IMG/VR virus record: IMGVR_UViG_3300037313_000577
Coordinates: 6,384 to 70,383 of that record
Direction: 5' to 3' (one strand)
Source of the DNA: a virus
Taxonomy: Duplodnaviria > Caudoviricetes
Length of the DNA stretch: 64,000 bases
How positions within the stretch are numbered: the stretch's first letter is position 1; the number at the start of each line of letters is the position of its first letter. This document shows, in pieces, positions 31,222-45,377 of the stretch. A model generated the notes under the pieces. That model saw nothing but the letters and a program-made list of their open reading frames with translations. It did no database searches and had not been told where the DNA came from. Position numbers and translations under genes: made by a program.

Positions 31222-31242
31222 CGACGAAAATTTTTTGGAATC

Positions 31243-31277: not shown

Positions 31278-31298
31278 GCGCTGTGTGAGGAATGCGTG

Positions 31299-31616: not shown

Positions 31617-31944
31617 GCTGTGTACGCTCCCTGCGTAATCGTGCACGCTCCTTGCGATTCTGTGCGATCTGGCGTTGATTGGCCTGTTGACGTGCACGCT
31701 GTAACGTTCGTGCACGCGCGCGAAGTTGCACACAACTGTTGCGATATTCCGCGATGCGACTATGGAGTCCGCTCAAGCCGTCCAGTACCGATCCAAGTGC
31801 GCTAATTTCCGCTTGCGGATCTTCCAACAACGCGCGCGCTTTCGACGCATCTTCGTACGCGATGATCGCACGCTTAAGGATGCGCAACTGTGCACGCACT
31901 ACGGCACGCTGTGTGTCGATCACAAGCTTGTCTGTTTCGTCCAT
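31603..31944 (-). CDS. coiled-coil hypothetical protein
   Basis: AGGAGG RBS adjacent to element E1. Confidence 0.6.
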   Translation of the reverse strand: MDETDKLVIDTQRAVVRAQLRILKRAIIAYEDASKARALLEDPQAEISALGSVLDGLSGLHSRIAEYRNSCVQLRARARTLQRARQQANQRQIAQNRKERARLRRERTQHERD

Positions 31945-32014
31945 GCATACCTCCTTAAACGCCCAAACCAACATGCGATGTGCATGTTGGTTAAGGCGCG
32001 TGGAATATGCTGGA

Positions 32015-32347
32015 TTACGCATCAAGACGCTTGAAAAGATTCGGATGAATCTGACGTGCGACGGTTTCAGACACGCGAATGCAGCACGCGCGTAAGTAGT
32101 CATCCGACACAGAACTGCCAGCTACGGCGCTGTTGTCCCACGTGTGGACGGCCATCAGACCTTCAACACAATAGCGCGTGCCATTCCAGTACCAGCGTGG
32201 ATTATTGTGATCGAGCGAGATCGCGATCACGTTGCCGGGTGCGATCACCTTTGATGCGACGACGGAATAGCGCTTACGCGCGTTGCGACGAAAGTGTTGT
32301 TTGCCTTGCGCACTGCCAAGATCACGATAGAAGCGATAGCCTTGCAT
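32015..32347 (-). CDS. hypothetical protein (cassette E2)
   Basis: GGAGG RBS. Bounded by elements E2 and E1. Confidence 0.65.
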   Translation of the reverse strand: MQGYRFYRDLGSAQGKQHFRRNARKRYSVVASKVIAPGNVIAISLDHNNPRWYWNGTRYCVEGLMAVHTWDNSAVAGSSVSDDYLRACCIRVSETVARQIHPNLFKRLDA

Positions 32348-32419
32348 GTGTGTACCCTCCGTATGTAGCTTTTAAACGCCAAAAACGCATGCGATGTGCA
32401 TGCGCTTCTGGCGCGCGTG

Positions 32420-32824
32420 TTAGTGATCAGCGATCCACTGTGGAAGTGCGTCGATGAACGTTTGGATCATCTCTGCGAACGTGCCGTATTCGATCCAATC
32501 GTCAGGACCACGCCCCATGAGTCCAATCGGACGCGTCCGCTCACATTCCCACGAATCGTCACTCTCGTTGTGTGAGAGCACGATCACGTAATCGTCGCCC
32601 GACTCATCATCGGGATCGCCAAGCGTGAGTCCGTCGCAACCGTGCTGTTCGCGCATGCAGATCGCGCGGACCTTCGTTTGCAGACTTTTCACCGTGCGTG
32701 CCTGCACGCGCGACGTTTGACGATTGTCGTAATTCCAACGCAGTGTGAGCACAAGCATGCCGTTCGCTTGCGTGCCAATCGTCGGTTGTGCCGTCCTACG
32801 TGCGAGTCTGTTCTCCGTCCGCAT
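32420..32824 (-). CDS. hypothetical protein
   Basis: GGAGG RBS before MRTEN. Confidence 0.6.
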   Translation of the reverse strand: MRTENRLARRTAQPTIGTQANGMLVLTLRWNYDNRQTSRVQARTVKSLQTKVRAICMREQHGCDGLTLGDPDDESGDDYVIVLSHNESDDSWECERTRPIGLMGRGPDDWIEYGTFAEMIQTFIDALPQWIADH

Positions 32825-33183
32825 TAGAAATACCTCCATTCTACGTTGCCATCAGGATCATACTCGAATGTAATCGTACAGGGTAAATATCCAGGAATGT
32901 GCAAACGCACGCGCATGCCGCACACGTCAGCTATGATCGCGCTTGCGTCCCTGACATAGCTGATCACGCGTGCATCGTCTGCCTCATGCAACACAAGCAT
33001 GGTATCGGCCACGGCGAATGCGCCAATGGCGCGTATACGGACGTAGCGCATACCACAGGTGAATAGCGCGCAATAATACGCGTGTGTGCGATGCACATCT
33101 TCCGCGTCGGCGGGATTGTCAAGACAGATCGCGTTGTCGCGGATGCGTACACGCCGCGCGTGCTCTAGATCGGTCGTTGCCAT
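32824..33183 (-). CDS. hypothetical protein
   Basis: GAGGAAG RBS, coupled to neighbours. Confidence 0.55.
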   Translation of the reverse strand: MATTDLEHARRVRIRDNAICLDNPADAEDVHRTHAYYCALFTCGMRYVRIRAIGAFAVADTMLVLHEADDARVISYVRDASAIIADVCGMRVRLHIPGYLPCTITFEYDPDGNVEWRYF

Positions 33184-33839
33184 AAGCGATCTTCCTCACG
33201 CTGTTCGTGATAACACGCGGGACATTCATGCGCTTCTGTAACTCGGAGAAGCGAGAGCGGTTTGTGCTGCGTGTCTACGGTTAAGATGTACTTGATCGTA
33301 GACCGATGCGATGGTGACGTAAGCCAGATATAAAATTCTAGCTCGCCCGATCCATGCGGATCGGAGTCAAGTTCGTAATCTTCCAACTGTTCGTCATCAT
33401 GCAACATGCACGCTTGCGCCTGTGGCGTGCGTAAGAACGCTTCCAATTCGCCCACGATCATCGGTAGATTCTCCCATTTGATAACACCTTGCACGCGTTC
33501 GCTTGCGCGTGCCGGATTCACAGGCTCCTGTGAATCCGCGTGTGCGGCCGTACGCGGCACGATTAACACCGCGTACATTCCTTCATCGATCAGCGATCCG
33601 TAATACGCACACGCTTCTTGCGTGGCGTTGACGACGCGCAAGATCGTGAGCAGACGATGCACCAACATCGATTGATTCGACGCTGGAAACTTGAATGTCA
33701 GCATCACGCCGTCTGCATGATCACCTTCGATCCCATGACCTGTAAAACGGTGCAATGCACCGAGCTTAAACCACGGAAGCGCGGCCTGTTGAGCCGCGCT
33801 TGTGGCGATGCGTGCGATGGTAGTAGACGTGGCGGACAT
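33165..33839 (-). CDS. hypothetical protein
   Basis: 224 aa, TGATG overlap with the upstream gene. Confidence 0.55.
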   Translation of the reverse strand: MSATSTTIARIATSAAQQAALPWFKLGALHRFTGHGIEGDHADGVMLTFKFPASNQSMLVHRLLTILRVVNATQEACAYYGSLIDEGMYAVLIVPRTAAHADSQEPVNPARASERVQGVIKWENLPMIVGELEAFLRTPQAQACMLHDDEQLEDYELDSDPHGSGELEFYIWLTSPSHRSTIKYILTVDTQHKPLSLLRVTEAHECPACYHEQREEDRLWQRPI

Positions 33840-35023
33840 CACACACGTTCCTTCGTGCGTGTATACTTACAGCGTGTCAGTTCTGTTTGGGCGACTCCTT
33901 TATACTCCGTATGCGCCTTGATCGTGCCAAGCAGGGTGTACGTGCATCCTTCTTCCAGGCGATACGATGATGTACGCCACGTGTAGATGTTGCCGGTCGC
34001 GTCGTGGAAGATGTGTTGAAACGATACGCCGTAGAGCGTATCATTGTCAAAGATCCGCTCGACCGTCAGATCGATAAAGATCGTGCGATCTCCAACGTTG
34101 CCGACGTGCTGCGATGCTTCGCGCTTGCGTTCGTGCGCTAGCTCGCGCGCCAATGTGCGGCGATAGGCGCTCACGGCACTCGCGACCAGTGCAGCGCTGC
34201 GTGCGTCTGTGTAGTCTTGTGCATCGATCATCACAAGATTATGCTCGTAGTCCGTGCGTTCGTGGATCGGCTTGATTGTGAGCGTGTGCATCCACGCGCG
34301 GGTCGCTGTTGCAAGCGCGCGATCATCGTCGCCAACCGGCTCTTGCGGAATATCGCGCGGATCGGACGGACGTGGCGAAGCACTTATGTTCGTGAATACG
34401 CGCGTGATCGTGGGTATCCCGCCTGTTTCGGTCGCTTTTGCACGCGATACCCAACCGTGTACGCGGATCATCGCGGCTGTGTGCTGCAAGATCGCATCGA
34501 TGTCAAAGAGATCGCGATGTGTCGAAATGCCTACGCGCATGAACTGATCGAGATCGTCAAGCATGTGCATCTGGCGCAAGATCGCGCCCGATACGATATT
34601 GTCTGGAAAGAAGTCTTTGAGACAATTCGATCCGACGATCTTGATCTCTCCTGTTTGCGTATGCACGACGACGTACGTCTTGAGTCGATTCCGCACGGTG
34701 TTGCACACATCACAGTGTGCCGGGCCAGTACGATACTGTGTGAGATCGATCTGTGGAAGGTGCGATTGTGGCACACGCGACACGATGTTACCATGTGGCG
34801 TGTGCTCGACAACGGCCATAAACGCCCAATCGTCATAGATCGGACCAGATCCTTCTAGCTCACATTCATACATGAGATAGAATGATCCATCTTCCTGCTC
34901 GACTCGATGCTCCGTACCAACACGCAACGTGATTGGATCGACTTGACGCGATGTGCGATGCGCGTTGAGCTTATGCACTTTTGCGCGGACAAGCTCTAGT
35001 GTTCTTTCGTCTAGCGTGTACAT
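33839..35023 (-). CDS. phage protein with CxxC motif and C-terminal OB-fold-like domain
   Basis: AGGAGG RBS adjacent to E3. Contains CDVCNTVR and a C-terminal HVGNVGDR...LLGTIKAHTEYKGVAQTELTRC segment. Confidence 0.75.
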   Translation of the reverse strand: MYTLDERTLELVRAKVHKLNAHRTSRQVDPITLRVGTEHRVEQEDGSFYLMYECELEGSGPIYDDWAFMAVVEHTPHGNIVSRVPQSHLPQIDLTQYRTGPAHCDVCNTVRNRLKTYVVVHTQTGEIKIVGSNCLKDFFPDNIVSGAILRQMHMLDDLDQFMRVGISTHRDLFDIDAILQHTAAMIRVHGWVSRAKATETGGIPTITRVFTNISASPRPSDPRDIPQEPVGDDDRALATATRAWMHTLTIKPIHERTDYEHNLVMIDAQDYTDARSAALVASAVSAYRRTLARELAHERKREASQHVGNVGDRTIFIDLTVERIFDNDTLYGVSFQHIFHDATGNIYTWRTSSYRLEEGCTYTLLGTIKAHTEYKGVAQTELTRCKYTRTKERV

Positions 35024-35097
35024 GTGTACCTCCTTTAAACGCCGAAAGCCATATGCGTGTGCATATGGCATCAGCGGATTCACAGGCGTGGTGTGCG

Positions 35098-35757
35098 TTA
35101 GAGATCACGTACGAGCATGGTATTGTAGCATGACCATATCGCGTGACTCAACGCGAAATAATCTTGCTCACACAGATCCTCGATGTACTGTATGCGTTGA
35201 TTGTAGCGAATCGTGCGTAACATATAGTAGACTTCACGCCATTTGCGCGGCATCGCATCGATGTATGTAACGAAATCCAGATCGTCGCGACATTTGGTTT
35301 GAATGAGTGGCATACCCAATACATCGGTACGAATAGTCATCGACAAGTACGCGTGTTCACGTGGAATGTGTACGCGTGGCGATTTGATCACGCCCGGTGG
35401 AAGCTGTGCAATGCGATCTTGCCGTAAGTGAATGCGATCAAGTGCGCGTTCCAGGTACGCATCGACATCCGCGAGTCCGTTTGGAAGATCATCGAATGTT
35501 GGTGGCGGCGTCACTGTACCGTCCGCATAGCGTACCTGATGCATGTAACATTGTCGCGTGAAATCCCAATTGTGCTCAGCATAGCGCTTGACGCGCGGAT
35601 ACCGCTGCGGCATGTAATACTCATCGATAGCGATGCACGGTTGTCCGCCGACGATGATCCACAAGCGGAGATGTTCGCCTTTGTAGGTAAATTCGATGCC
35701 GCTTGCGCCTGCACTCAGCAACGTGACTCCATCCGGCATGTACTCCTGTAGCTGCAT
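35098..35757 (-). CDS. hypothetical protein (cassette E4)
   Basis: AAGGAGG RBS, 219 aa. Confidence 0.6.
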   Translation of the reverse strand: MQLQEYMPDGVTLLSAGASGIEFTYKGEHLRLWIIVGGQPCIAIDEYYMPQRYPRVKRYAEHNWDFTRQCYMHQVRYADGTVTPPPTFDDLPNGLADVDAYLERALDRIHLRQDRIAQLPPGVIKSPRVHIPREHAYLSMTIRTDVLGMPLIQTKCRDDLDFVTYIDAMPRKWREVYYMLRTIRYNQRIQYIEDLCEQDYFALSHAIWSCYNTMLVRDL

Positions 35758-35836
35758 GTGATCCTCCTTATGTGCTGTTTAAACGCCTAAAACGCCACAC
35801 AATTGCGTGACGTTTTGAGGCGTGTGCGTGCGTGCA

Positions 35837-36010
35837 CTACTGTGATCGATACGTGCTCTCGTAGACGACTCCGATGATCAGGCCAATCGACGCACCAAAC
35901 AACGCTGCTGCATAGCGATCCCATGTTGGATTGTGATGCAGCAGAAGTGAGATCAGCATGCAGATGACTGCAAACTCTGTGAGCAGTGCAAGCCTGTAAT
36001 TGAGTTTCAT
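35837..36010 (-). CDS. small two-TM membrane protein
   Basis: MKLNYRLALLTEFAVICMLISLLLHH..., read manually. TGATG coupling with the upstream gene. Confidence 0.5.
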   Translation of the reverse strand: MKLNYRLALLTEFAVICMLISLLLHHNPTWDRYAAALFGASIGLIIGVVYESTYRSQ

Positions 36011-36231
36011 CATACATCCTTGAATGAAATTTCATCGAAATGTGTGAGCAATTCCGCCAGGACGTGCGACGAGATCGGCTTACATTCGCGCATGGTTTGA
36101 TAGAGCGCGTCTACCAACTCATGCACGCGCTTGCGCGATTGTGCATACTGAAAGGACAGGTGCGAGTCGCTATACGTGTTCACGCGCATCGTCACTTGCA
36201 CTTTCTTACCGCGAATCAGACGTGCTACCAT
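36010..36231 (-). CDS. hypothetical protein
   Basis: AGGAGG RBS adjacent to E5. Confidence 0.6.
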   Translation of the reverse strand: MVARLIRGKKVQVTMRVNTYSDSHLSFQYAQSRKRVHELVDALYQTMRECKPISSHVLAELLTHFDEISFKDV

Positions 36232-36308
36232 GTGTGTACCTCCTTAAACACGTAAAGCGCCGTACGTGTGTACGACGCTGACGCTCCGACATGTGCGTGC
36301 GTGTGTGC

Positions 36309-36890
36309 CTAGTCGCGATGTCCGCGCATTGGCGTGCAGGGCTGCGTGATCGGCCCCGAAAGATCGAACGTGTTAGGCGCAACACGTCCAATCGCACCAC
36401 AGCGCTTGCACAGGACCGCTTGTCCGTACTCGTTCGACACAGACTCGAATCCGTCGATCTCGTGACCACGCTCCGTGATGATGTCAAGCGCGCGTTCTTC
36501 AAGCGTCCATGTATACGCACGATCTACCGACACATTCAAGTGAATGTCCATCGGTGCCATATCGTGCCGTGCATTCGTGCGCAGGATGATCGTTTTTCCA
36601 CGCGCGTACACATCGTACACACGCACGCCGACCTTTGAATCGTAATCTTCATGCGTGTATGCGCCGGGATGCAGCATCTCAGCAACAACGCATGCGATTC
36701 TGTGCAGCACTTCATCACAATACAGATCCCACGCTTCGGCGGTAGCAAAATCGCTCATGCTTGCGTGTCCTGCCTGTTGCACAAACAAGTCGCGCGCTTT
36801 AAACCATGTTGCACGTGCGCTGATCCAATCCTGTGCATCCGGCGTTTCGTTTGTGTCCTGCGTGCATGCGTGTGTGTCGTTGGCGTCCAT
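36309..36890 (-). CDS. hypothetical protein (cassette E6)
   Basis: GGAGG RBS, C-terminal CxxC. Confidence 0.6.
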   Translation of the reverse strand: MDANDTHACTQDTNETPDAQDWISARATWFKARDLFVQQAGHASMSDFATAEAWDLYCDEVLHRIACVVAEMLHPGAYTHEDYDSKVGVRVYDVYARGKTIILRTNARHDMAPMDIHLNVSVDRAYTWTLEERALDIITERGHEIDGFESVSNEYGQAVLCKRCGAIGRVAPNTFDLSGPITQPCTPMRGHRD

Positions 36891-36978
36891 GAGATTCCTC
36901 CATGCGAATGTGAATGCATCCGCTTAACTGTCTAAAGCCGTATGCGTGTGCATACGGCTTGGCGATTCACAGGTCGCG

Positions 36979-37140
36979 CTAGCGTACATTCAGCTTGATC
37001 TTGACTCCCTTAGCAGTAAGCGTATGCAGTTGCTCTGCAAACGTGCGTTCAAAATCCGCGCGCTGCTGCATTGCTCGCTTGCGTGCTTGTGCCGCATTGT
37101 ACCGACTCCGACGCGTGCTCTGCTTGGTGGTGCGTGCCAT
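36979..37140 (-). CDS. small basic protein (cassette E7)
   Basis: MARTTKQSTRRSRYNAAQARKR..., 53 aa, GGAGG RBS, read manually. Confidence 0.55.
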   Translation of the reverse strand: MARTTKQSTRRSRYNAAQARKRAMQQRADFERTFAEQLHTLTAKGVKIKLNVR

Positions 37141-37220
37141 TGTGTGTGCCTCCGTGTGTGTCCTTTAAACGCCTAAAGCGCATGCGTGTGCTGCATGCGC
37201 TTAGGTGTGTGTACGTGCTA

Positions 37221-37484
37221 CTACACGTGAAAGACAGGACCGATAGTTTTGCGTTCGCCAGCGAGCGTGATCGCTACGGTATCTTCGATCTTGCGACACG
37301 CGATGACATCAGCCATATCGATCTCTCGCCCTAAGATCTCATAGTTCTCATGCGTCACCGTCAGTGCTTTCAGTCGCACTTCTGCACGCACATCTCCATC
37401 CCCAGTGGCGATAATGTACGTGCAAATGTCCGGTTCCACTTGTCCTAGCACGTCCACGCTTACGACGACGATCCAATGCTTCAT
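37221..37484 (-). CDS. hypothetical protein (cassette E8)
   Basis: GGAGG RBS, 87 aa. Confidence 0.6.
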   Translation of the reverse strand: MKHWIVVVSVDVLGQVEPDICTYIIATGDGDVRAEVRLKALTVTHENYEILGREIDMADVIACRKIEDTVAITLAGERKTIGPVFHV

Positions 37485-37560
37485 GATACCCCTCCATGTG
37501 TATGTGTGTGTTTAAATGCCTAAAAGCGTACGCGATGGACGTACGCTTTTAGGTGTACTA

Positions 37561-37857
37561 TTATTCAATGGTCAGATCAGTAATCCGTGCACGTGTGCCA
37601 TTTTCATGGATCACAGGCGTATCTTCAAGCCTGCGTGTCGATATGACGTAACACGACAACGCGTTACGAGTATGTGTCGCATGCTCGTCCTGAACAAGCT
37701 TGATCGCAAGCGCATGTGCACGCGCGACATCCATTTCTTCGTTGTCAGTTACGTGCACGCCGATCACATGTGTCGTGTACAGCGTCATGATTCCTATGTA
37801 GTCGTGTACAACGACGGTGATCGCATAATGGCGAGTCGGTGTAGCTTTGTTTGTCAT
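37561..37857 (-). CDS. hypothetical protein
   Basis: ATGA overlap with the upstream gene. Confidence 0.5.
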   Translation of the reverse strand: MTNKATPTRHYAITVVVHDYIGIMTLYTTHVIGVHVTDNEEMDVARAHALAIKLVQDEHATHTRNALSCYVISTRRLEDTPVIHENGTRARITDLTIE

Positions 37858-38201
37858 AGCAAGATCCATCCATCGTCATAGTCGCGCTGAATGAAGAATC
37901 GCTTGGCGTCCTTGATCGCGCGAATGTGATCCTCCACTGGTACGAAGTCACGCGGCGTTGTTGCAAGCTTCATTGTATCAGGCGGTAAGCGGTACACGAT
38001 GCGCTTGTCTGCAAACATGGCCGACCACGCGATAATCTTCCCGCTTGTTTGTGCGAATACAAGCATAACGTTCGTCGGCTTGATCTCCCACGCGTAGCGC
38101 GTGCCGTCCGGTAACGATTCGCCTTGTGCCAGCACAACTTTGCAGATCTGTTCTGCATAATCGTGCACTTCACGCTTACTCAATCGAATCGGCTTCGTCA
38201 T
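37854..38201 (-). CDS. hypothetical protein
   Basis: GGGAGGG RBS before MTKP. Confidence 0.55.
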   Translation of the reverse strand: MTKPIRLSKREVHDYAEQICKVVLAQGESLPDGTRYAWEIKPTNVMLVFAQTSGKIIAWSAMFADKRIVYRLPPDTMKLATTPRDFVPVEDHIRAIKDAKRFFIQRDYDDGWILL

Positions 38202-38299
38202 AAATTCCCTCCCCATGATGCATAGGCTGCAATAAGCAGCGAAATAATGCATGCGACGATCACAAGTGTGATGTAGAAACGTGGCGATTCACGCTGCAT
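38198..38299 (-). CDS. 33-aa single-TM peptide
   Basis: MQRESPRFYITLVIVACIISLLIAAYASWGGNL, with AGGAGG adjacent to E9. Confidence 0.5.
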   Translation of the reverse strand: MQRESPRFYITLVIVACIISLLIAAYASWGGNL

Positions 38300-38385
38300 G
38301 CGTCCCTCCTTTAAACGCCTAGAACGTACCGCGATGTGCGATACGTTCAGGCGCGCGTGGGAGCGTGTGCGTGTGCGTAAGCGTG

Positions 38386-38718
38386 CTAGAGTTGAATGTC
38401 ACGCAGGATCGATGCTGCGAGTCCGCTGCGGACATGTTCATGCAGGGCTGTGATCTCGCAGGCGTGATCATCGCCAATGATGATGTACGCGTCCGCATCT
38501 GTAAGTCGCTCTGCATGCGGATGGACAATGACGATCACAGCGCCGCAATGCGTGCAATGGCATCCGATGGATCGTCCGCCGACATGATCGTGCCATGGCG
38601 CGTACGTGTGTGTGCGATCATCTCCGAAGATCGAGCGTGCGACGATCTTCGCTTGATCGAGTGTGATCCCGCTGATTGCGATTCGCTCTTGTGGGAGCAG
38701 TGTTGTTTGCGTGTACAT
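38386..38718 (-). CDS. hypothetical protein with CxxC
   Basis: GGAG RBS, HCTHCG motif. Confidence 0.5.
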   Translation of the reverse strand: MYTQTTLLPQERIAISGITLDQAKIVARSIFGDDRTHTYAPWHDHVGGRSIGCHCTHCGAVIVIVHPHAERLTDADAYIIIGDDHACEITALHEHVRSGLAASILRDIQL

Positions 38719-38720
38719 TG

Positions 38721-39338
38721 CTAGCTCCATCGATTCACGAATGTTTTATACTCTTTGCGCGTACTTTCGTACACATCGTACACGATCCACGATAAACCAT
38801 TCTCCTGTTGGTGGTGTGTGGTGATGCGTCCCTGAATCGCCAATACACGATCACAGACCGTGCATGCGCGCACATGTAGTGCAAAATGCACACGCGTGTA
38901 CGCTTCATGTGGAATGTAGATGATGGAATGTGCATGCCCACACGTCAACTTATCCGCTTGCAAACGCGCCCGATCTAGCTCATGCAAGAGCGATTGCGAA
39001 TAGATCTGCAACATTGTGCCATCGACAAACTGAATCGATGGGCACCATTGTGCGCTTTGTGCAAGTGTGAATGAACGCGTCCAACGCAATGCTTCTGCAT
39101 GCGTATCGAAATACGCGTACATGTGCTTGCCGCTATAGCACAATGCGTGCACGTATGCATGGTTCTGCAATGGCGTTGTTGGATCATCGAAACGCAAAGA
39201 GATGCGCTTGATGTCGTGCTTGTTGCGATGCATCCATTGCTTCGGGTTAATGTCGCGCCGTACGTGCTCGAACGCGGTCCATGCTTCGGTGTACGCGTAC
39301 TCAAACGCGCGCTTTTCCGCTGTAATCCTGCGTGCCAT
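38721..39338 (-). CDS. hypothetical protein
   Basis: GGAGG RBS adjacent to E10. Confidence 0.6.
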   Translation of the reverse strand: MARRITAEKRAFEYAYTEAWTAFEHVRRDINPKQWMHRNKHDIKRISLRFDDPTTPLQNHAYVHALCYSGKHMYAYFDTHAEALRWTRSFTLAQSAQWCPSIQFVDGTMLQIYSQSLLHELDRARLQADKLTCGHAHSIIYIPHEAYTRVHFALHVRACTVCDRVLAIQGRITTHHQQENGLSWIVYDVYESTRKEYKTFVNRWS

Positions 39339-39425
39339 GTGTGTGTGTACCTCCCTTTAAACGCCGAAAAGCGCATGCGATATACATGCGCTTTGGCGAT
39401 TCACAGGTGCGTGTGTGCGTACGTG

Positions 39426-40004
39426 CTAGCGTGCGCGATACCAATTGTGCACGTGATGTTCTGTGATCGTCACGTACTCGTATAAGCCGCGTTGCGCGCG
39501 AATCTCGATACGATTCGGTGAACGCTTCCATGTTTTAATGGACGTAATACGATAACGCTGCGGCGTGAGTCCGTCCGCGTCAAAATGTCCGATTGGATGA
39601 ATGACTTCACCTTGACGCAGATCTTTTGCACATTCGAGATCGAGTGGACGAATCACAGTTCGCGTACCGTGTTGTTGATCTTGCCAGTTTGCAATACGAC
39701 TCGACATAGGATACACAAACAATTCACCATTGACGATCAAGTGATGTGCGATCATACGATCAATGCGCTCCACTGTGATCACAAACACGTTATAGCGTTG
39801 ATCCGCTGAATACATCGCTGTAATCTGATCGTGTGCGTGATGAGTCGCTTCATCGTACGAGTCCGCTTGCACCAAGAGATCGACAATCAATGTGTCTGCT
39901 GCAAACACGCTGAATTGTGGCGTGCCGATTGTCGGATTCTTTGCAGACAATTCTGCAATGATCAACCAGAGCGGATGGTCCGGCACAAAATCGGTCGCTG
40001 GCAT
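39426..40004 (-). CDS. hypothetical protein (cassette E11)
   Basis: GGAGG RBS. C-terminal beta-rich segment (YRITSIKTWKRSPNRIEI). Confidence 0.6.
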   Translation of the reverse strand: MPATDFVPDHPLWLIIAELSAKNPTIGTPQFSVFAADTLIVDLLVQADSYDEATHHAHDQITAMYSADQRYNVFVITVERIDRMIAHHLIVNGELFVYPMSSRIANWQDQQHGTRTVIRPLDLECAKDLRQGEVIHPIGHFDADGLTPQRYRITSIKTWKRSPNRIEIRAQRGLYEYVTITEHHVHNWYRAR

Positions 40005-40119
40005 GATGATCCTCCATGCGTGTGTGTGTACTCACGCGTGTGTGTATGAACGTGCACAATACACGCTCGTTAACGCCGTAAAGCGCATCACATATCGTGA
40101 TGCGCTTTCGGATTCGCTT

Positions 40120-40695
40120 CTACTGATATGCAGGACAGTGTGTCAGTTTTGTTCTGTAATCAATAGCGTAACGTGTACCGAGATGTGTTGTTGCGTGCGT
40201 GTAATTCAAGATCGCGCCACACGCGCTACAACGCAATGCGTTGCTGTATTGTTCTGTTCGTGTAGGCGTGAATGCATGACGCGATTCTGCAATGCGCTTA
40301 AGTAATTGATCCCATGTCAACATGCGTTGCCAACCGACCGGAAGTTTAACAGTCGCGTTGCATGCGATCGACGTGATCACTTCTCCATACGACGCACGCA
40401 CAAGATCGCGCGCTTGCACACCTTGCGGAAGATCAGTAACCGATACGAAATTGATGCGTTGATCTTCAAGCGCTGTACGTAAATGCGCTTGAATGTGACT
40501 CGTTGTTACGCTATAGCGCGTGGTGTTCACAACGAATCGTGGCGCATCTTCGCGCGTGGTTGCAATGGCTGTACCGTACGAAAAGAGCGTACCGTGTTGC
40601 GACCAGACCGCGTTAAGTTCGCGTCCACTATCGCGTGTAGGCGATACGATCCATGCATCGATAAGTTCTGCATTCCGCTCGCGTATGTGTCCCAT
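40120..40695 (-). CDS. hypothetical phage protein (cassette E12)
   Basis: GGAGG RBS. LFSYGTAIA...TTRYSVTTSHIQ segment and C-terminal CxxC. Confidence 0.65.
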   Translation of the reverse strand: MGHIRERNAELIDAWIVSPTRDSGRELNAVWSQHGTLFSYGTAIATTREDAPRFVVNTTRYSVTTSHIQAHLRTALEDQRINFVSVTDLPQGVQARDLVRASYGEVITSIACNATVKLPVGWQRMLTWDQLLKRIAESRHAFTPTRTEQYSNALRCSACGAILNYTHATTHLGTRYAIDYRTKLTHCPAYQ

Positions 40696-40785
40696 TGTGT
40701 ACCTCCATGTGTGTATGCGCATGCATGTGCATACGCTTTAAACGTCTAAAGCGTAGCATGGTGTATGCTACGCTTGAGTGAGTCG

Positions 40786-40989
40786 CTAGCGCGTGATTCG
40801 AATCCAATCGCGTAATTCATCACGGATCGCGATCAACTTTTCGCAATTGTCCGCGAGTCGCTCGTACGGCATTGGATTCTTTGTATCCGCGCTTCGTCGC
40901 TTGACCTCTTTACGCATCTCTACAATGCGATCCGTTAATGCATCCGCGACTAAGATCGCTTCGTCTTGATTAAGCGAGAGATTCTTCAT
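40786..40989 (-). CDS. hypothetical protein (cassette E13)
   Basis: AGGAG RBS, 67 aa, helical. Confidence 0.6.
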   Translation of the reverse strand: MKNLSLNQDEAILVADALTDRIVEMRKEVKRRSADTKNPMPYERLADNCEKLIAIRDELRDWIRITR

Positions 40990-41081
40990 GTGTGTATTCT
41001 CCTGATATGTCCTTTAAACACCTAAAACCATGCAGCATGTGTGCATGGCTTTAGCGATGCGTGTGTGCGTGTAGGCGCGTG

Positions 41082-41303
41082 TTAATCGAGATATTCTAAA
41101 CAATCGTCGCATGCCATATACGGATCGTCGCTTAAGTCGCTTGCGAAGATCGCGCGGATCGGATCGCCATGCCGATCACAAGTGAACGGATCTTGGAGTT
41201 GCGTTTCTGTGAATCGCTTGCGTGCACATTCTGGACAATGATGTGCCGCTTCGTACGTGTAGCCGATCACAGCGGTCGCGTGCAGACGAAATTGTGTGAG
41301 CAT
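41082..41303 (-). CDS. small Cys-rich (2x CxxC) protein
   Basis: AGGAG RBS, CPEC...CDDC. Confidence 0.6.
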   Translation of the reverse strand: MLTQFRLHATAVIGYTYEAAHHCPECARKRFTETQLQDPFTCDRHGDPIRAIFASDLSDDPYMACDDCLEYLD

Positions 41304-41343
41304 GATGTGTGTACTCCTGTGTGTGTACGTGTGTGTGTACGTG

Positions 41344-41583
41344 CTAGGCCCATTCAAGCGTGCGGATCATCTTCTGATCGTCGCGATCTGCTGTAATTAC
41401 GCGTGTGCCAACTTTGAGCGTGCGTGAATGCACAATACGTACAAATACGCCGGTAACACGCTCTGCATGCGCGTGTGCGATGTGTTCTGCCATGACGCTA
41501 TCCGGTGCCGCTACGACGTACGAGAAATCGTTGATGAATCCATCCGCGCGCCATGTAACGATGTACAATTGATCTTTAGGCAT
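41344..41583 (-). CDS. hypothetical protein
   Basis: GGAGG RBS adjacent to E14. Confidence 0.6.
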   Translation of the reverse strand: MPKDQLYIVTWRADGFINDFSYVVAAPDSVMAEHIAHAHAERVTGVFVRIVHSRTLKVGTRVITADRDDQKMIRTLEWA

Positions 41584-41647
41584 ATGTACCTCCCTTTAAA
41601 TGCCTATAACCGTGTACACATCGTACACGGTTATAGACGTGTGTGTG

Positions 41648-42232
41648 CTAGTGGCGCGTGTGTGGACAATCGGATTCGGTACGCCACACAATCTCGTAAT
41701 CGCTCAAGCGAATCTTTTGTAGCGCGTTACAATCGTAACACTTTGCTTGCACAAAATCATCGCCATCGTCGCGCCAGTAATGCATGTTGTGGCCTAGATT
41801 CGTCGCGTGACGCTCTAGATCTCGCATGCGTGCGCCAAGAATGCCAAGCATACAATCGCGCGGGATTGATCGTAGTTCGCGCGCATTCGCACGTGCCCAT
41901 TCGCGTACGCGTGTGTGATCGCTATCCCAATACGCGCTTGCGATCTCTTGCGGAAGTGCGTGCATCGCTTGCAAGACCGTCGTTGGCACGCGCTCAGGTA
42001 GACCGTCCGATCCGTACGATCCACTGATGTAGATCGGATAATTAACAAGCGTGAATGTCGCCATCATGAAATTTCCGCATTGCGCCATGCGCACGGTACG
42101 AATCGCGCCGTACAATTGCGGATTCGGATGCTGATCGGCATGTCCGTATGCAAGCAAGAGATACGATCCGCTAGAGCGTTGCGATCCGTCACGCGTGTAC
42201 CATGTGCGTGCTTTGCCGTCATTGATGAACAT
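41648..42232 (-). CDS. hypothetical protein (cassette E15)
   Basis: GGAGG RBS, 194 aa. Confidence 0.6.
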   Translation of the reverse strand: MFINDGKARTWYTRDGSQRSSGSYLLLAYGHADQHPNPQLYGAIRTVRMAQCGNFMMATFTLVNYPIYISGSYGSDGLPERVPTTVLQAMHALPQEIASAYWDSDHTRVREWARANARELRSIPRDCMLGILGARMRDLERHATNLGHNMHYWRDDGDDFVQAKCYDCNALQKIRLSDYEIVWRTESDCPHTRH

Positions 42233-42322
42233 GATGTGTACCTCCATGTGTGTATGTTTGCGCGTGTGTGCGCTTTAAATGCCTAAAGCGTATCACGATA
42301 TATGATACGCTTTAGAGATTGC

Positions 42323-42562
42323 CTAACGCTTAAAGATACTTAAGCAGGTATCTAGTTCATGATCCGATGCGTGATTGTAGTATTGTCCTGCGACGGTATC
42401 CGGTCCACTACGTGCAAGATATTCGAGAATCTCATGTGCATCTTTGCGCGTCAATGTGTGCGGATCGCGTCCAATTCTGCGTGCTTGACTACGAATCGCG
42501 CCTTGTGTGATTGTGCGTGCATAAATGTACGTTGCCTTGAGGTCAAAGTTCAATTTGATCAC
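42323..42562 (-). CDS. hypothetical protein (cassette E16)
   Basis: GTG start after GGAG. Confidence 0.55.
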   Translation of the reverse strand: MIKLNFDLKATYIYARTITQGAIRSQARRIGRDPHTLTRKDAHEILEYLARSGPDTVAGQYYNHASDHELDTCLSIFKR

Positions 42563-42648
42563 GTTCCTACTCCATGTATGTATGGCTTTAAACGCCTAAC
42601 GCGCATGGCGATGTACCATGCGCGTAGCCGATTCACAGTGCGTGCGTG

Positions 42649-43149
42649 CTAGCATCCGGTAATGCTTGACCAAAAGATCTCGTATGGATCGGGATTCGCG
42701 CTTGGCTCGTATTTTACATCGATGCGTGCGCGTGCGTGCAAGAGTCCCAGTAAGTAGATGTCCTGTTCAGGCGTAAGCTTGAATCGCTTGCGTACAACAT
42801 CGTATGCGGTACGCTTATACTTGATCTCACTTCGTATGCAATGCCATAACGGTAAGTGAAAGTGTGCATAGAGATCAAACGCCGTATGCCAAAAGCGCGT
42901 GCTATGTGATTCGCTTGGATCGCAACACAGATGCGCGTATTCATGTAACAAGCAAAGCGCTTGATCGACACCGCTTTTACCTGCTGAAATATGCATGCGA
43001 TTGAGCGCGGGCCATGCACGTCCGCTACTATTGTAATGCTTCGTGTTGGTCCACGTGATCGACGGCATAGGTCGATTCTTATATTCGCATGCACGTTCGA
43101 TCACTTGGATCGCCCAATCCGGCACATTTTTCGTAGATACGCGTGACAT
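42649..43149 (-). CDS. SprT-like zinc metalloprotease-domain protein
   Basis: LLHEYAH (HExxH) followed by H..RFW. AGGAGTACACACAATG RBS. Frame stays open upstream to 43389. Confidence 0.7.
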   Translation of the reverse strand: MSRVSTKNVPDWAIQVIERACEYKNRPMPSITWTNTKHYNSSGRAWPALNRMHISAGKSGVDQALCLLHEYAHLCCDPSESHSTRFWHTAFDLYAHFHLPLWHCIRSEIKYKRTAYDVVRKRFKLTPEQDIYLLGLLHARARIDVKYEPSANPDPYEIFWSSITGC

Positions 43150-43185
43150 TGTGTGTACTCCTGGTAAACGTGGACGCGATTCACA

Positions 43186-43206
43186 GTGTGTGTGTGTGTG
43201 TGTGTG
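43186..43206. repeat. (TG)n microsatellite
   Basis: About 10 TG units flanked by GATTCACA...TGTGAATC inverted arms. Confidence 0.85.
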
Positions 43207-43295
43207 AATCACGCTCTGAAATTTCATTTTTGCGTGGGGAAATTTCAGAATTGCTGAACTTTGAATTGCACGCCCTATGCATGCGTGCCGACAAT

Positions 43296-43385
43296 GATCG
43301 TGATCGTGATCGTGATCGTGATCGTGATCGTGATCGTGATCGTGATCGTGATCGTGATCGTGATCGTGATCGTGATCGTGATCGT
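43296..43385. repeat. (GATCGT)15 perfect tandem repeat
   Basis: 90 bp of exact hexamer copies. Reads (DH)n on the minus strand. Confidence 0.95.
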
Positions 43386-43482
43386 CCATGGATTCACGTG
43401 CTAGACTAAGCTAGCGCGTGCTCTAATTAATGTCGTTTAAATGCAGAATGCCGACATACAATGTATGTCGGCATTCTGTCTG

Positions 43483-44064
43483 CTACGTGTACTCTACGCA
43501 TCCACATGGATACCAGAGTAGGATTGTGTGCGTGTTAGGGTCAGTAGGCGAGTAATCGCGTGGTATGTAGATCGCACGCCAAAGGCACGTAATGCCGCAT
43601 TGTGTGCGATGGGTTGCTATCGGTTCTGTCTTAATGTGTTGGTACTGACATGTCGCATGGTGTGGCGACTTGCGATGTGTGAATGTCTGAGGAATGCGCC
43701 ATGCTTGATCGCGATCCGGCATGTGCAGAGTACTAAGCTTTGTCTTTGTTTGTGGCGCTGGCGCTGGCGGCTTATAGCGGTCCCCAGTAGATCGCCCTAC
43801 TGGACTCTCTGTCTGTGGCTGTGGCTGTGGCTGTGCTGGCGGCACGCATGGTGCATAGCTTGCAGAACCAGACACAATGCCGGATGGTAGGACATAGACC
43901 ATGCTCGCGCAATGCGTGCATCGTGCTAGGTAGATCTTGCGGGATTCAGAGTAGAGCCATGCGCCAAGACTATGATTGTTCGAGCATGCTTGATCACGCG
44001 CATGATCTAACGCATGCTTGATCACGTGTGATGCATGCGTATAAGGATCTACGATCTGTGTCAT
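43483..44064 (-). CDS. hypothetical Cys/His/Pro-rich protein (cassette E18)
   Basis: GGAG RBS, PQPQPQ tract, CxxC motif. Confidence 0.55.
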   Translation of the reverse strand: MTQIVDPYTHASHVIKHALDHARDQACSNNHSLGAWLYSESRKIYLARCTHCASMVYVLPSGIVSGSASYAPCVPPAQPQPQPQTESPVGRSTGDRYKPPAPAPQTKTKLSTLHMPDRDQAWRIPQTFTHRKSPHHATCQYQHIKTEPIATHRTQCGITCLWRAIYIPRDYSPTDPNTHTILLWYPCGCVEYT

Positions 44065-44135
44065 AGGACTCTCCATACTATAGGCTTTAAATGGCTAAAG
44101 CGATCTACGGCATGTAGATCGCTTTAGAGTATGGA

Positions 44136-44423
44136 CTAGCGTACGCGTACGGTGGCGATATAATGCGTATGTTCTGATCTATCGTGATAGTGCGATCCGA
44201 AAATTGCGAATCCCGTAAACTTATCTGCACGCGCTATTATGGTACGTAGCATGTCGCCTATGTATGCATGCGTTAAGACACATGCGCTATTAACACATGT
44301 TGTGTTGCGATGCACATACGAGATCACGATGCTTGTGTACCCATGCTCAGATGCTTGATTCAGGATCATCTCTGTAAGATCCTGATTCGGATCGCGATGC
44401 ACCATGTTTGGTTGAACGTTCAT
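44136..44423 (-). CDS. hypothetical protein (cassette E19)
   Basis: AAGGAGTACACACAATG RBS. Confidence 0.65.
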   Translation of the reverse strand: MNVQPNMVHRDPNQDLTEMILNQASEHGYTSIVISYVHRNTTCVNSACVLTHAYIGDMLRTIIARADKFTGFAIFGSHYHDRSEHTHYIATVRVR

Positions 44424-44498
44424 TGTGTGTACTCCTTATGTGTGTGTCCTTTAAATGCCTAAAGCCATGCATGGTGTATGCATGGCTTTAGTTATGTG

Positions 44499-44792
44499 CT
44501 AGATGCGCGGAAGGATATCTAGGATAGATATTGTACGATTCGTAGACTTATTCGATTGTACGCCATGCACGTTAATCACCTTGTGTGTATTAGCTTGCAT
44601 TAAAACACTGTATATGACTTGTGTCATAAGGTGATGCTTTAGGATCGTGCTATACGTTCTTGTAATCCTAGCATCCTGATCACGTGCATCGATGTAATCA
44701 ATAGCGATTAACACGTATTTTTGTTTACGTGCATGAGTAAGGATCTGTCCTGCTAGTTGTTCTGCATAGTCGAAAAGATCGTGCTCGCCCAT
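44499..44792 (-). CDS. hypothetical protein (cassette E20), probable distant paralogue of 44136..44423
   Basis: Same RBS leader and a shared L...IL..A....Y..I.I.Y pattern. Confidence 0.65.
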   Translation of the reverse strand: MGEHDLFDYAEQLAGQILTHARKQKYVLIAIDYIDARDQDARITRTYSTILKHHLMTQVIYSVLMQANTHKVINVHGVQSNKSTNRTISILDILPRI

Positions 44793-44874
44793 TGTGTGTA
44801 CTCCTTATGTGTGTGGCCTTTAAATGGCTAAAGCGATCTACGTTTCGTAGATCGCTTTAGTGTATGGTAGCGTG

Positions 44875-45246
44875 CTAGATGTTTGCTAACTTCCGTTCAT
44901 TAAAGAATCTCGCCCAATATGTTTGCAATGTGTAGATTGTTACTTCATTGGCTTGATCATGGCTTGCATCCGCCATGCGTAGACCGTGATAGATATACGC
45001 GTGTACACTGGGATTCAAGACTCCGTGATGCGTCATGATCTCATGGGCAAGCTTGATCAGATACTTAATGTAGATTACATCATCGTATGTCTTGGCAAGC
45101 GTGCACGGTTGATCATGCAATGGCAGCATGGGACATGGTAGACGGGACTCTTCGACTCGTTGGGCGATGTCATAGACAAAGAGTAGATAATCTTTTGACG
45201 TGTTTAGTGGTAGATCCATCGTCATTGTGTCTGATTGAGCATTCAT
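44875..45246 (-). CDS. hypothetical protein (cassette E21)
   Basis: GGAGAGTACACACAATG RBS. Confidence 0.6.
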   Translation of the reverse strand: MNAQSDTMTMDLPLNTSKDYLLFVYDIAQRVEESRLPCPMLPLHDQPCTLAKTYDDVIYIKYLIKLAHEIMTHHGVLNPSVHAYIYHGLRMADASHDQANEVTIYTLQTYWARFFNERKLANI

Positions 45247-45377
45247 TGTGTGTACTCTCCTTTGTGTAAGCTATGGCCTAGCATGGCCTGCCATGGCCTT
45301 TAAATGCCTAAAGCCATGGGGCATGGCCCCATGGCTCTAGGATGGTCTAGGACGGCTTAGGATGGCTTAGGACAAGC

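What the first reader, a model, noticed from the sequence alone, without database searches (positions are those of the whole stretch)
31955..45340. 13.4-kb cassette array: 21 hairpin + GCRTTTAAA + RBS elements punctuate the leftward genes
Seen in sequence: nearly every intergenic gap of the leftward arm carries the same element in the same orientation. On the coding (-) strand it reads: stop codon, a 9-16 bp hairpin usually closed by CTAAAG...CTTTAG, a fixed 3-4 nt linker (GCR), TTTAAA, then GGAG(G) and ATG. The inner stems differ between copies yet stay paired (AGCGTAGCAT/ATGCTACGCT, AACCGTGTAC/GTACACGGTT, AATGCCGACATAC/GTATGTCGGCATT), so structure rather than sequence is conserved. Fifteen elements precede a single ORF and six precede 2-4 coupled ORFs. 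In six copies (31955, 35034, 36244, 38310, 39356, 41595) the RBS abuts TTTAAA, so TTTAAA cannot be an ordinary -10 box with a downstream start. There is no U-tract, so these are not standard terminators. Established knowledge: T4-type PeSL promoter/stem-loop cassettes, N4 virion-RNAP hairpin promoters and integron attC hairpins are partial analogues, and none matches this consensus. Inference, three alternatives: (a) hairpin-type promoters with +1 in the AAA; (b) RNA-processing sites that cut a long early transcript into monocistronic mRNAs; (c) structure-specific recombination sites that let the phage shuffle a library of host-takeover or anti-defence genes. This is the best candidate for an undescribed system.
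Basis: partly seen in the sequence, partly recalled or inferred. Interest (0 to 1): 0.92.

Follow-up and report, generated by a model that had tools for sequence, protein, structure and literature searches.

The report
Hairpin-plus-UUUAA punctuation of phage early genes
An uncultured soil phage separates its small early genes of unknown function with 21-22 copies of a strong RNA hairpin followed by the fixed sequence GGCRUUUAAA; a second, very distant phage has the same signal, no described RNA family matches it, and it most likely marks where the long early transcript is cut or capped rather than a promoter or a recombination site.

Summary
On the minus strand between 31954 and 45341 there are 21 intergenic copies, plus a 22nd at 33765-33805. 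Each is a 13-17 bp hairpin (-19 to -31 kcal/mol) followed within 0-3 nt by (G)GCR-TTTAA-A/G.

What the tests showed:
- Stems covary, and the fold is selected on the sense strand: 31 G.U pairs against 0 A.C mismatches. The hairpin therefore acts as RNA.
- A covariance model built from this phage alone finds 10 of the 11 copies noted in a second soil virus, G001. G001 shares only a ~24%-identical replication module with this phage.
- Closer polymerase relatives have no copies, and wide scans returned only isolated matches. The element is rare and undescribed.
- It is not a canonical terminator. Terminator scores are negative in 19 of 21 copies, while the arm ends in a proper U6 terminator.
- It carries no sigma-70 promoter.
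- No RNA polymerase, sigma factor or integrase was found in the record.
- No rearrangement was seen in four other metagenomes.

Best reading (about 0.45): RNA punctuation that forms or caps 3' ends on one long early transcript, read by a sequence-specific factor. Rivals are a leaky terminator or pause, a PeSL-like terminator-promoter unit, a regulator site, a nut-like site and an attC-like site. The mechanism is not shown. I class it as a new variant of a known kind.

The parts
31299..45929 (-). Leftward arm: about 31 small co-oriented genes, nearly all without a known family
   Evidence: ORF reading and sequence. Pfam gives only 3 marginal hits and PHROGs 8 unnamed families for 30 proteins. 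No paralogues among them.
45299..45341 (-). Element 1: 16-bp hairpin plus GGCATTTAAA. It follows the first gene of the arm.
44819..44860 (-). Element 2: 15-bp hairpin plus GCCATTTAAA. Its inner stem is the same as in element 4.
44450..44491 (-). Element 3: 14-bp hairpin with loop ACACC, plus GGCATTTAAA. Best score against the model (59 bits).
44086..44127 (-). Element 4
43436..43478 (-). Element 5: 16-bp hairpin plus TGCATTTAAA. A 286-nt repeat-rich non-coding slot follows it.
42587..42630 (-). Element 6, preceded by CTGTGAATC
42274..42316 (-). Element 7
41595..41638 (-). Element 8, with the RBS abutting TTTAAA. It precedes 2 ORFs.
41013..41054 (-). Element 9 (GGTGTTTAAA)
40737..40778 (-). Element 10 (GACGTTTAAA)
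40069..40111 (-). Element 11, with a degenerate tail (GGCGTTAAC)
39356..39398 (-). Element 12, RBS abutting, preceded by CTGTGAATC
38310..38353 (-). Element 13, RBS abutting. It precedes 3 coupled ORFs.
37511..37553 (-). Element 14
37164..37205 (-). Element 15
36923..36960 (-). Element 16, with a degenerate tail (GACAGTTAAG)
36243..36279 (-). Element 17, RBS abutting (TTTAAGGAGG)
35778..35822 (-). Element 18: 17 pairs, 2 of them G.U
35034..35076 (-). Element 19, RBS abutting. It precedes 4 coupled ORFs.
33765..33805 (-). Probable 22nd element: 14-pair hairpin plus GTGGTTTAAG, inside the annotated start of ORF 33165-33839. A downstream AAGGTGATC-ATG start would make this stretch intergenic.
   Evidence: the alternative start is inference
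32371..32413 (-). Element 20: 16 pairs, 2 of them G.U
31954..31998 (-). Element 21, RBS abutting (TTTAAGGAGG)
31242..31278 (.). Canonical terminator where the two arms converge: GC-rich stem followed by U6 on the minus strand. This is the real end of the leftward arm.
   Evidence: score +37.9 on the minus strand
45963..48600 (.). 2.6-kb non-coding region upstream of the arm, divergent from the terminase arm. It has no copy of the element and no good sigma-70 match on the minus strand.

Best explanation
The elements are signals read on the sense RNA of one long leftward early transcript. That transcript probably runs from the 46-48.6 kb non-coding region to the U6 terminator at 31242-31278.

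Each element has two parts. The first is a very stable stem-loop placed 4-36 nt after a stop codon. The second is an invariant single-stranded tail, (G)GC-R-UUUAA-A/G, placed directly at the foot of the stem.

I think the tail is the recognition and cut site of a sequence-specific factor. The cut would fall at about R|UUUAA, made by an endoribonuclease of host or phage origin. Its preference would resemble RNase Y (R|W) or RNase E (RN|WUU), but the invariance of the tail suggests something more specific. Cutting would leave each upstream message capped by a 3' hairpin that blocks 3'-5' exonucleases. It would leave each downstream message starting a few nucleotides before its Shine-Dalgarno sequence. 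The result would be stable one- to four-gene messages from one early transcript.

Shown here: the element is real, it is conserved in a second phage, its structure is selected on the sense strand, and it lacks terminator, promoter and recombination hallmarks. Inferred: that RNA is cleaved there, where the cut falls, and which factor makes it.
For: 1. RNA-level, sense-strand selection. The 33 hairpins of the two phages hold 31 G.U pairs and 0 A.C mismatches. The sense fold is more stable than the antisense fold in 23 cases and less stable in 5 (Wilcoxon p = 6e-4).

2. Structure is conserved while stem sequence is free. TTAA of the tail is invariant in all 21 aligned copies, and the T before it nearly so.

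3. The hairpin-to-tail distance is fixed at 0-3 nt in 20 of 22 copies. The stop-to-hairpin distance varies (4-36 nt) and so does the tail-to-start-codon distance (9-64 nt). Hairpin and tail therefore form one unit.

4. A model built only from this phage finds 10 copies in G001 (best E = 6e-8), all on the sense strand of an analogous arm of unknown genes. G001 shares with this phage only a distant replication module, with PolA at 24% identity.

5. The elements are not efficient terminators. The terminator score is below 0 in 19 of 21 copies here and in 11 of 11 in G001. The arm ends in a canonical terminator scoring +37.9. This implies read-through of the elements and one long transcript.

6. 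All genes are co-oriented, and elements occur only between groups of translationally coupled genes.

7. In G001, 7 of 11 loops have the tRNA T-loop pattern UUNRANU. tRNA-like hairpins followed by A/U-rich trailers are classical endonuclease processing signals (established knowledge: RNase E and RNase Z act on tRNA 3' trailers).

8. The purine before UUU fits the published R|W (RNase Y) and RN|WUU (RNase E) preferences. This rests on my own knowledge and was not tested.
Against: There are no RNA data, so no 5' or 3' end has been mapped.

RNase E and RNase Y are loose in sequence preference and would not by themselves explain an invariant UUUAA. No endoribonuclease gene was recognised in either phage. 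The host is unknown, so its set of RNases is unknown.

Most copies read GGCG, which fits RN|WUU less well than GGCA.

The motif is fused to the RBS in all G001 copies and in 6 copies here. That would fit a role in translation equally well.

Hairpin base directly followed by UUUAAA is also the geometry of a weak terminator or a pause site.
Confidence: 0.45

Rival explanations
1. Leaky, non-canonical intrinsic terminators or hairpin-dependent pause sites. RNA polymerase would stall or partly terminate at UUUAAA just after the hairpin. That would give a gradient of expression along the arm, or a way to keep transcription and translation in step. The hairpin would stabilise the terminated RNAs.
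For: The geometry is that of a terminator: a G/C clamp at the stem base, then UUU within 0-3 nt. In this phage many 3' arms carry U3-U5 runs created by G.U pairing. Two of 21 copies score above 0, and the others are only moderately negative (median -9.6). The sense-strand RNA signal fits equally well.
Against: A terminator needs U-richness, not an invariant UUUAA preceded by GCR, yet that sequence is what two divergent phages share. In G001 the run next to the GC stem is often not U-rich, and all 11 copies score far below threshold (median -29.6). The phage uses proper U5-U6 terminators where it does end transcription. Twenty-one successive terminators would starve the distal genes unless some antitermination system exists, and none was found.
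Confidence: 0.2
2. Composite terminator-promoter units like the PeSLs of T4-type phages. The hairpin would end the upstream message, and GGCRTTTAAA would be (part of) a promoter read by host RNA polymerase redirected by a phage factor. That factor could be the helix-turn-helix product of the first gene of the arm. Each cassette would then be its own transcription unit.
For: In both phages the first gene of the arm lacks the element and every later unit has it, as in an early-to-middle cascade. The first gene product looks like an HTH_17/MerR-type DNA binder, but this is only a weak lead. No good sigma-70 promoter was found anywhere in the arm. The invariant sequence suggests a specific reader. 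PeSLs are stem-loop plus promoter units in regions rich in genes of unknown function (PMC4122927).
Against: There is no -35/-10 pair. TTTAAA violates the two key -10 positions, A at position 2 and T at position 6. In 6 copies here and in all G001 copies the RBS starts 4-7 nt after the motif. A sigma-70-type start would then lie behind the RBS, although every gene keeps a good RBS. No sigma or RNA polymerase gene was found. The first genes of the two arms are unrelated. All cassettes share one orientation.
Confidence: 0.12
3. Binding site of a regulator that controls translation or elongation of the early genes as a set. Comparable cases are the SAS/ESAS motifs of cluster K mycobacteriophages, T4 RegA on early mRNAs, and stoperators.
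For: The motif runs into the RBS (TTTAA(A)GGAGG) in all G001 copies and in 6 copies here. Most spaced copies still keep AAAGG. SAS/ESAS are likewise an asymmetric motif at the RBS with an inverted repeat just upstream, confined to the non-structural half of the genome, and of unknown function (PMC3203893).
Against: In 15 copies here the motif lies 9-40 nt from the real RBS. A repressor site does not explain why it must sit at the foot of a hairpin of free sequence. No shared candidate protein was found between the two phages.
Confidence: 0.12
4. Repeated nut-like or rrn-like antitermination sites. A variable boxB-like hairpin followed by a boxA-like sequence would reload Nus factors on RNA polymerase and prevent Rho-dependent termination in the C/A-rich untranslated gaps.
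For: The order hairpin then GCGUUUAA recalls boxB then boxA (GCUCUUUAA) of rrn leaders. This comparison is from my own memory and is a lead only. The gaps are C-rich and G-poor, like Rho loading sites. An arginine-rich 53-residue protein is encoded at 36979-37140.
Against: The match to boxA needs a one-base deletion and a C-to-G change. Known systems use one or two sites per operon, not 21. The host is unknown, so its boxA could not be compared. The small protein has no detectable relatives.
Confidence: 0.05
5. Structure-specific recombination sites (attC-like or IS200/IS605-like) that move gene cassettes.
For: The layout is a cassette-like array of unrelated genes. Stems are variable on a conserved base (CCTAAAG/CTTTAGG faintly recalls the RYYYAAC/GTTRRRY core of attC). 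The core TTAA is palindromic.
Against: The hairpins are perfect and lack extrahelical bases. Wobble pairs favour the coding strand, whereas attC folds its bottom strand. No integrase or transposase was found in this record. Contigs of four other metagenomes show no joints or indels and are 99-100% identical, although coverage is fragmentary. The arm holds no duplicated cassettes.
Confidence: 0.04

Closest known systems
PeSL (promoter-early stem-loop) cassettes of T4-type phages (Arbiol et al. 2010, PMC2839356; Comeau et al. 2014, PMC4122927)
   Same: A repeated composite unit with a stem-loop lies between small early genes of unknown function in a plastic region. All copies are co-oriented, stems vary and the flanking sequence is conserved.
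   Different: PeSLs carry a recognisable sigma-70-type promoter (TTGACA/TTTACW-N17-TATAAT-like). The elements here have none, and the RBS is too close to the motif for such a promoter. PeSL-linked indels could not be tested because no close relative exists in the collections searched.
RNase III processing sites between the early genes of T7/T3, and Bacillus RNase III sites in SP82 early mRNA (established knowledge, not re-read here)
   Same: Hairpins punctuate a long early polycistronic transcript. They leave upstream messages with a protective 3' hairpin.
   Different: T7 sites are longer irregular hairpins with an internal loop and are cut inside the duplex. Here the stems are perfect and 13-17 bp long, and the conserved part is a single-stranded tail, which points to a single-strand-specific reader. 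There are 21 sites rather than 5.
SAS/ESAS motifs of cluster K mycobacteriophages (Pope et al. 2011, PMC3203893)
   Same: An asymmetric motif overlapping the RBS, with an inverted repeat just upstream. It is confined to the non-structural half of the genome, occurs in one orientation in many copies, and has unknown function.
   Different: The consensus is different (GGGATAGGAGCCC). ESAS repeats are conserved in sequence, whereas stems here are free. In this phage 15 of 21 motifs are detached from the RBS.
Intrinsic terminators and intercistronic stabiliser hairpins (REP-type)
   Same: A stable GC-rich RNA hairpin lies just after a stop codon on the sense strand, with U residues following it.
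   Different: The elements have only U3 followed by A3, and their terminator scores fall below threshold. An invariant GCRUUUAA tail is not a feature of terminators or REPs. The phage's true terminators have U5-U6.
Integron attC sites
   Same: An array of promoter-less, co-oriented cassettes, each followed by a hairpin with a variable stem on a conserved base.
   Different: The elements lack extrahelical bases and an unpaired central region, lack the RYYYAAC/GTTRRRY core, have no IntI nearby, and are selected on the coding strand.
tRNA-like processing signals
   Same: In G001, 7 of 11 hairpins carry a T-loop-like 7-nt loop, and an A/U-rich trailer follows them between early genes.
   Different: The hairpins of this window have CA-rich 3-7-nt loops rather than T-loops. 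No full tRNA-like fold is present.

Membership tests
Intrinsic (Rho-independent) terminator | Stable GC-rich RNA hairpin on the transcribed strand | tested here: met
   Stability of -19 to -31 kcal/mol, with sense-strand bias
Intrinsic (Rho-independent) terminator | U-tract of about 5-8 residues directly after the stem, with a positive d'Aubenton-Carafa score | tested here: not met
   At most 3-5 U. The score is below 0 in 19 of 21 copies here and in 11 of 11 in G001. The phage's own terminators score +31 and +38. The consensus scan reports none of the elements.
PeSL cassette (T4-type) | Stem-loop followed by a sigma-70-type early promoter (-35, N17, -10) | tested here: not met
   No hexamer pair scoring 9/12 or better lies in any gap of the arm. 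The RBS starts 4-6 nt after the motif in 6 copies.
PeSL cassette (T4-type) | Gene gain or loss between close relatives bounded by the elements | not testable with these tools
   No close relative was found. The best homologue of an arm protein is 35% identical. Other metagenomes hold the identical phage.
N4-type hairpin promoter | 5-7-bp stem with a 3-nt loop on the template strand, and a virion RNA polymerase gene | tested here: not met
   Stems are 13-17 bp. Wobble pairs lie on the non-template strand. No RNA polymerase family was hit.
Integron attC | Imperfect hairpin with extrahelical bases and an RYYYAAC/GTTRRRY core | tested here: not met
   Stems are perfect or nearly so, with only 3 one-by-one mismatches in 33 hairpins. 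GTTRRRY fits only one degenerate copy.
Integron attC | Adjacent IntI-type tyrosine recombinase | tested here: not met
   None in the 70-kb record. The record may be incomplete (CheckV estimate 53%).
SAS/ESAS of cluster K mycobacteriophages | 13-bp GGGATAGGAGCCC motif 3-7 bp before the start codon, with 17-bp sequence-conserved inverted repeats | tested here: not met
   The motif is different, the stems are free in sequence, and 15 of 21 motifs are detached from the RBS.
RNase E/Y-type single-strand cleavage site | Unpaired A/U-rich segment with a purine just upstream (RN|WUU or R|W), next to a stem-loop | tested here: inconclusive
   The sequence is compatible: GGCA|UUU fits RN|WUU, and R|UUU fits R|W. 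These rules are loose and come from my own knowledge, and cleavage cannot be tested here.
T7-type RNase III site | About 20-bp irregular hairpin with an internal loop between early genes, cut within the duplex | tested here: inconclusive
   The position between early genes is met. The stems are shorter and perfect, and cleavage is not testable.
Any Rfam family | Match to a curated covariance model | tested here: not met
   No relevant hit at E <= 1 in window 30000-49000 or in the G001 arm.

The most novel reading that the evidence does not exclude
Hairpin plus RUUUAA is a private RNA 'punctuation code' read by a dedicated, still unidentified sequence-specific factor. That factor could be an endoribonuclease or RNA-binding protein of the phage, or a host enzyme that the phage recruits. 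The unit would be portable: an RNA-level cassette boundary that lets any newly acquired gene be expressed and stabilised once it is dropped into the early operon. Two otherwise unrelated soil phage lineages share it.
Probability: 0.3. Interest if true: 0.7.

Novelty: new variant of a known kind. Interest (0 to 1): 0.55.

Why it matters
Phage early regions hold most of the unknown host-takeover and anti-defence genes, and how such long operons of foreign-looking genes are expressed is poorly understood outside T4, T7 and a few others.

This element has an invariant tail and free stems, occurs 21-22 times in one genome, and is shared by a very distant phage. That makes it a clean, compact model: a 45-nt sequence that can be cloned between two reporters and tested for cutting, pausing, termination or protein binding.

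If a specific reader exists, it would be a new RNA-processing or RNA-binding specificity and possibly a useful insulator part.

Tried and rejected
- RNA evidence: no RNA holder was listed for the stretch.
- Reads laid from four other soil and rhizosphere metagenomes gave only fragmentary, 99-100% identical contigs with no joints or indels. They were therefore uninformative on cassette shuffling.
- Close relatives were not found. Megablast against phages gave nothing. PolA relatives in IMG/VR are at most 40% identical and have zero GCRTTTAAR and no hairpin arrays. The capsid protein has no hit in cultured phages. The PolA of G001 finds only itself. The best homologue of the 394-residue arm protein is 35% identical, and its contexts hold no element.
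- Exact-motif scans of IMG/VR, JGI/ENA metagenome contigs and 185,579 species genomes gave only singletons. One hit, in a Rhizobiales chromosome after cydABX, has the hairpin and scores E = 1e-6 with the model. It is single in that genome, and 151 genomes of that order gave only 3 weak single hits. No host can be inferred from this.
- Extending the record past its 3' end failed.
- Searches for a shared phage factor found nothing. BLASTP between the two proteomes finds only the replication module, and the first genes of the two arms are unrelated.
- Atlas look-ups of the first gene and of the arginine-rich 53-residue protein gave only weak leads or nothing.
- TTTAAA as -35 with TACACA as -10, archaeal TATA box, sigma-54, ECF sigma, the consensus pause signal and CsrA sites were considered from the sequences alone. 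All were dropped because spacing or key positions do not hold across copies.

Full report
**Context.** The window is bases 6384-70383 of a 70,383-bp IMG/VR virus record. The record is linear, and CheckV estimates it as 53% complete. It comes from soil and rhizosphere metagenomes. Its layout is as follows.
- A rightward arm at 1-31.2 kb carries tail fibres, an amidase endolysin, SNF2 and AAA_24 proteins, a PD-(D/E)XK nuclease, an SSB, a primase-helicase with an intein, and a UDG-fused family A polymerase.
- A leftward arm at 31.3-45.9 kb carries about 31 small genes.
- A 2.6-kb non-coding region follows.
- A second rightward arm carries terminase, portal and capsid genes.

The leftward genes have almost no family matches. 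No RNA polymerase, sigma factor, integrase or recognisable endoribonuclease was found.

GGCRTTTAAA with up to 1 mismatch occurs 21 times against 4.06 expected. All 18 minus-strand matches lie at 31954-45308. With two degenerate copies, the intergenic elements number 21. A 22nd sits at 33765-33805, in what is probably a mis-called N-terminus.

Each copy has a hairpin of 10-17 pairs, -19 to -31 kcal/mol, ending 0-3 nt before TTTAA in 20 of 22 copies. TTTAAA occurs 18 times in the arm and never in the 53 kb of rightward arms.

**Structure and strand.** A nearly gap-free alignment of the 21 copies shows an invariant TTAA with the preceding T nearly invariant. It also shows a helix in which 11 pairs have changes on both sides. 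For that helix, 79 cells changed on both sides against 26 in shuffles, none of 500 shuffles reached that value, and slid controls fall to 25-47% paired.

The fold is selected on the coding strand only. The 33 hairpins of the two phages hold 31 G.U pairs and no A.C mismatch. The sense RNA is more stable than the antisense in 23 cases against 5 (p = 6e-4). The hairpin therefore works as RNA, or at least on the sense strand alone. This argues against cruciform or duplex recognition, against N4-type template-strand hairpins, and against attC-type bottom-strand folding.

**A second carrier.** An exact-motif scan of IMG/VR found contig 3300037714_000576, called G001 here. It is 63.9 kb, is classed as a provirus, and carries an integrase and a tRNA-Gln. 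It has 11 copies on the sense strand of its own arm of unknown genes, each as stop codon, hairpin, GCRTTTAA(A)GGRG, then ATG.

A covariance model built only from the window's copies recovers 10 of them, with a best E-value of 6e-8. It finds nothing in four closer PolA relatives or in other related loci.

G001 shares only a distant replication module with this phage: PolA at 24% identity, plus SNF2, AAA_24 and SSB. The arm genes are unrelated. In both phages the first gene of the arm is not preceded by the element, and the first element follows gene 1. In G001, 7 of 11 loops have the T-loop pattern UUNRANU. The rest are CA-rich, like those of the window.

**Rarity.** Scans of IMG/VR, metagenome contigs and 185,579 species genomes with strict forms of the motif gave only isolated hits. 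One lone hit in a Rhizobiales chromosome resembles the element, but it is single there, and the order is not enriched for it. The element is therefore not a common host-genome signal, and the host remains unknown. Rfam has no match.

**What it is not.**
- It is not a canonical terminator. Terminator scores are negative in 19 of 21 copies (median -9.6) and in all 11 G001 copies (median -29.6). The arm ends at 31242-31278 in a hairpin followed by U6 that scores +37.9, and another phage terminator scores +30.9.
- It is not a sigma-70 promoter. The phage can write a perfect one, TTGACA-17-TATAAT at 17760. The arm has fewer promoter-like sites than chance, 11 against 23.4, and none in the gaps. The RBS begins 4-7 nt after the motif in 6 copies here and in all resolved G001 copies, so a start site downstream of a -10 would skip the RBS.
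- There is no evident recombination system. No recombinase was found, the hairpins are perfect, no joints appear in four other metagenomes, and the arm has no duplicated cassettes.

**Most likely mechanism.** One long early transcript reads through the elements. Each element is a unit of stable hairpin plus a single-stranded (G)GC-R-UUUAA tail at its foot. Its position between stop codon and RBS is loose, but its internal geometry is fixed.

I favour 3'-end formation by endonucleolytic cutting at about R|UUUAA. That would leave hairpin-capped upstream messages and downstream messages that begin just before their RBS. The invariance of the tail in two divergent phages points to a specific reader rather than to general A/U preference.

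This is inference, and I give it about 0.45. The alternatives are:
- a weak terminator or pause (0.20);
- a PeSL-like terminator-promoter unit read with a phage factor (0.12);
- a regulator site of the SAS/ESAS or RegA kind (0.12);
- a nut/boxA-like site (0.05);
- a recombination site (0.04).

**Comparison with known systems.** The element works like the intercistronic stem-loop cassettes of phage early regions: PeSL, T7 RNase III sites and SAS/ESAS. It fails the defining features of each, and of terminators, attC sites and N4 promoters. I therefore class it as a new variant of a known kind, real and well supported as an element, with its mechanism untested.

Earlier notes of this scan on other phages describe PeSL-type cassettes (e1-216313) and tRNA-like punctuation (e1-2911951). 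Those are analogous elements, not the same one.

Noticed in passing
whole record; e.g. window 42625-42640, 39398-39410, 36960-36975, 35076-35090, 16760-16795: The asymmetric 9-mer CTGTGAATC occurs 23 times on the plus strand and 14 times on the minus strand of the record. It sits 0-3 nt before about five of the hairpins and forms a perfect 15-bp inverted repeat at 16760-16795. G001 has at most one copy, so it is a separate signal from the hairpin-UUUAA element.
   Followed up: partly
window 31299-45929: TAG is the stop codon of 20 of 30 arm genes, 8 of them as TAGCAC. Elsewhere in the window it ends 12 of 47 genes. The cause is unknown.
   Followed up: partly
window 33692-33839: The 22nd element lies inside the annotated start of ORF 33165-33839. 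A downstream ATG preceded by AAGGTGATC would make this stretch intergenic, so the coupled group of 4 genes may be 1 + 3.
   Followed up: partly
window 31242-31278: A terminator at the convergence of the two arms is canonical (U6) on the minus strand, and its loop, ACATC/GATGT, is the same as the commonest loop of the elements.
   Followed up: partly
window 43150-43435: The slot after element 5 is 286 nt of non-coding DNA with about 15 GATCGT units, a CA/TG tract and a copy of CTGTGAATC. It is the only gap of this kind in the arm.
   Followed up: no
window 45963-48600: A 2.6-kb non-coding region lies upstream of the arm. It has a large inverted repeat at 45955-46068 and no sigma-70 match of 9/12 or better on the minus strand. 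The best candidate is TTAACA-17-TG-TACTGT, with its -35 hexamer starting at 46953. The promoter of the arm is therefore not identified.
   Followed up: partly
window 17760-17788: A perfect TTGACA-17-TATAAT promoter, the only one in the window, with 0 expected by chance. It shows that the host reads standard sigma-70 promoters.
   Followed up: partly
L017:15742-19362 (G001 35742-39362): Seven of the G001 hairpins have 7-nt loops of the tRNA T-loop type (TTCGACT, TTCAACT, TTTGACT, TTAGACT and similar) on closely related stems (GCGTCGRG...). They look like copies of an acceptor/T-arm mimic.
   Followed up: partly
L045:26-75 (Rhizobiales bacterium AFS022961, contig_40): A lone, well-formed copy (hairpin plus GGCGTTTAAGG, E = 1e-6 with the model) lies about 300 nt after cydABX, 25 nt from a contig end. 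It is single in that genome.
   Followed up: partly
window 36979-37140: A 53-residue protein has an arginine-rich N-terminus (TKQSTRRSRYNAAQARKR) reminiscent of RNA-hairpin-binding peptides. It has no detectable relatives.
   Followed up: partly
window 19351-24562 and 30395-30853: Selfish elements in the replication arm: a LAGLIDADG intein in the primase-helicase and three HNH (two with AP2) endonuclease genes. One of the HNH genes is fused to a DNA methylase.
   Followed up: no
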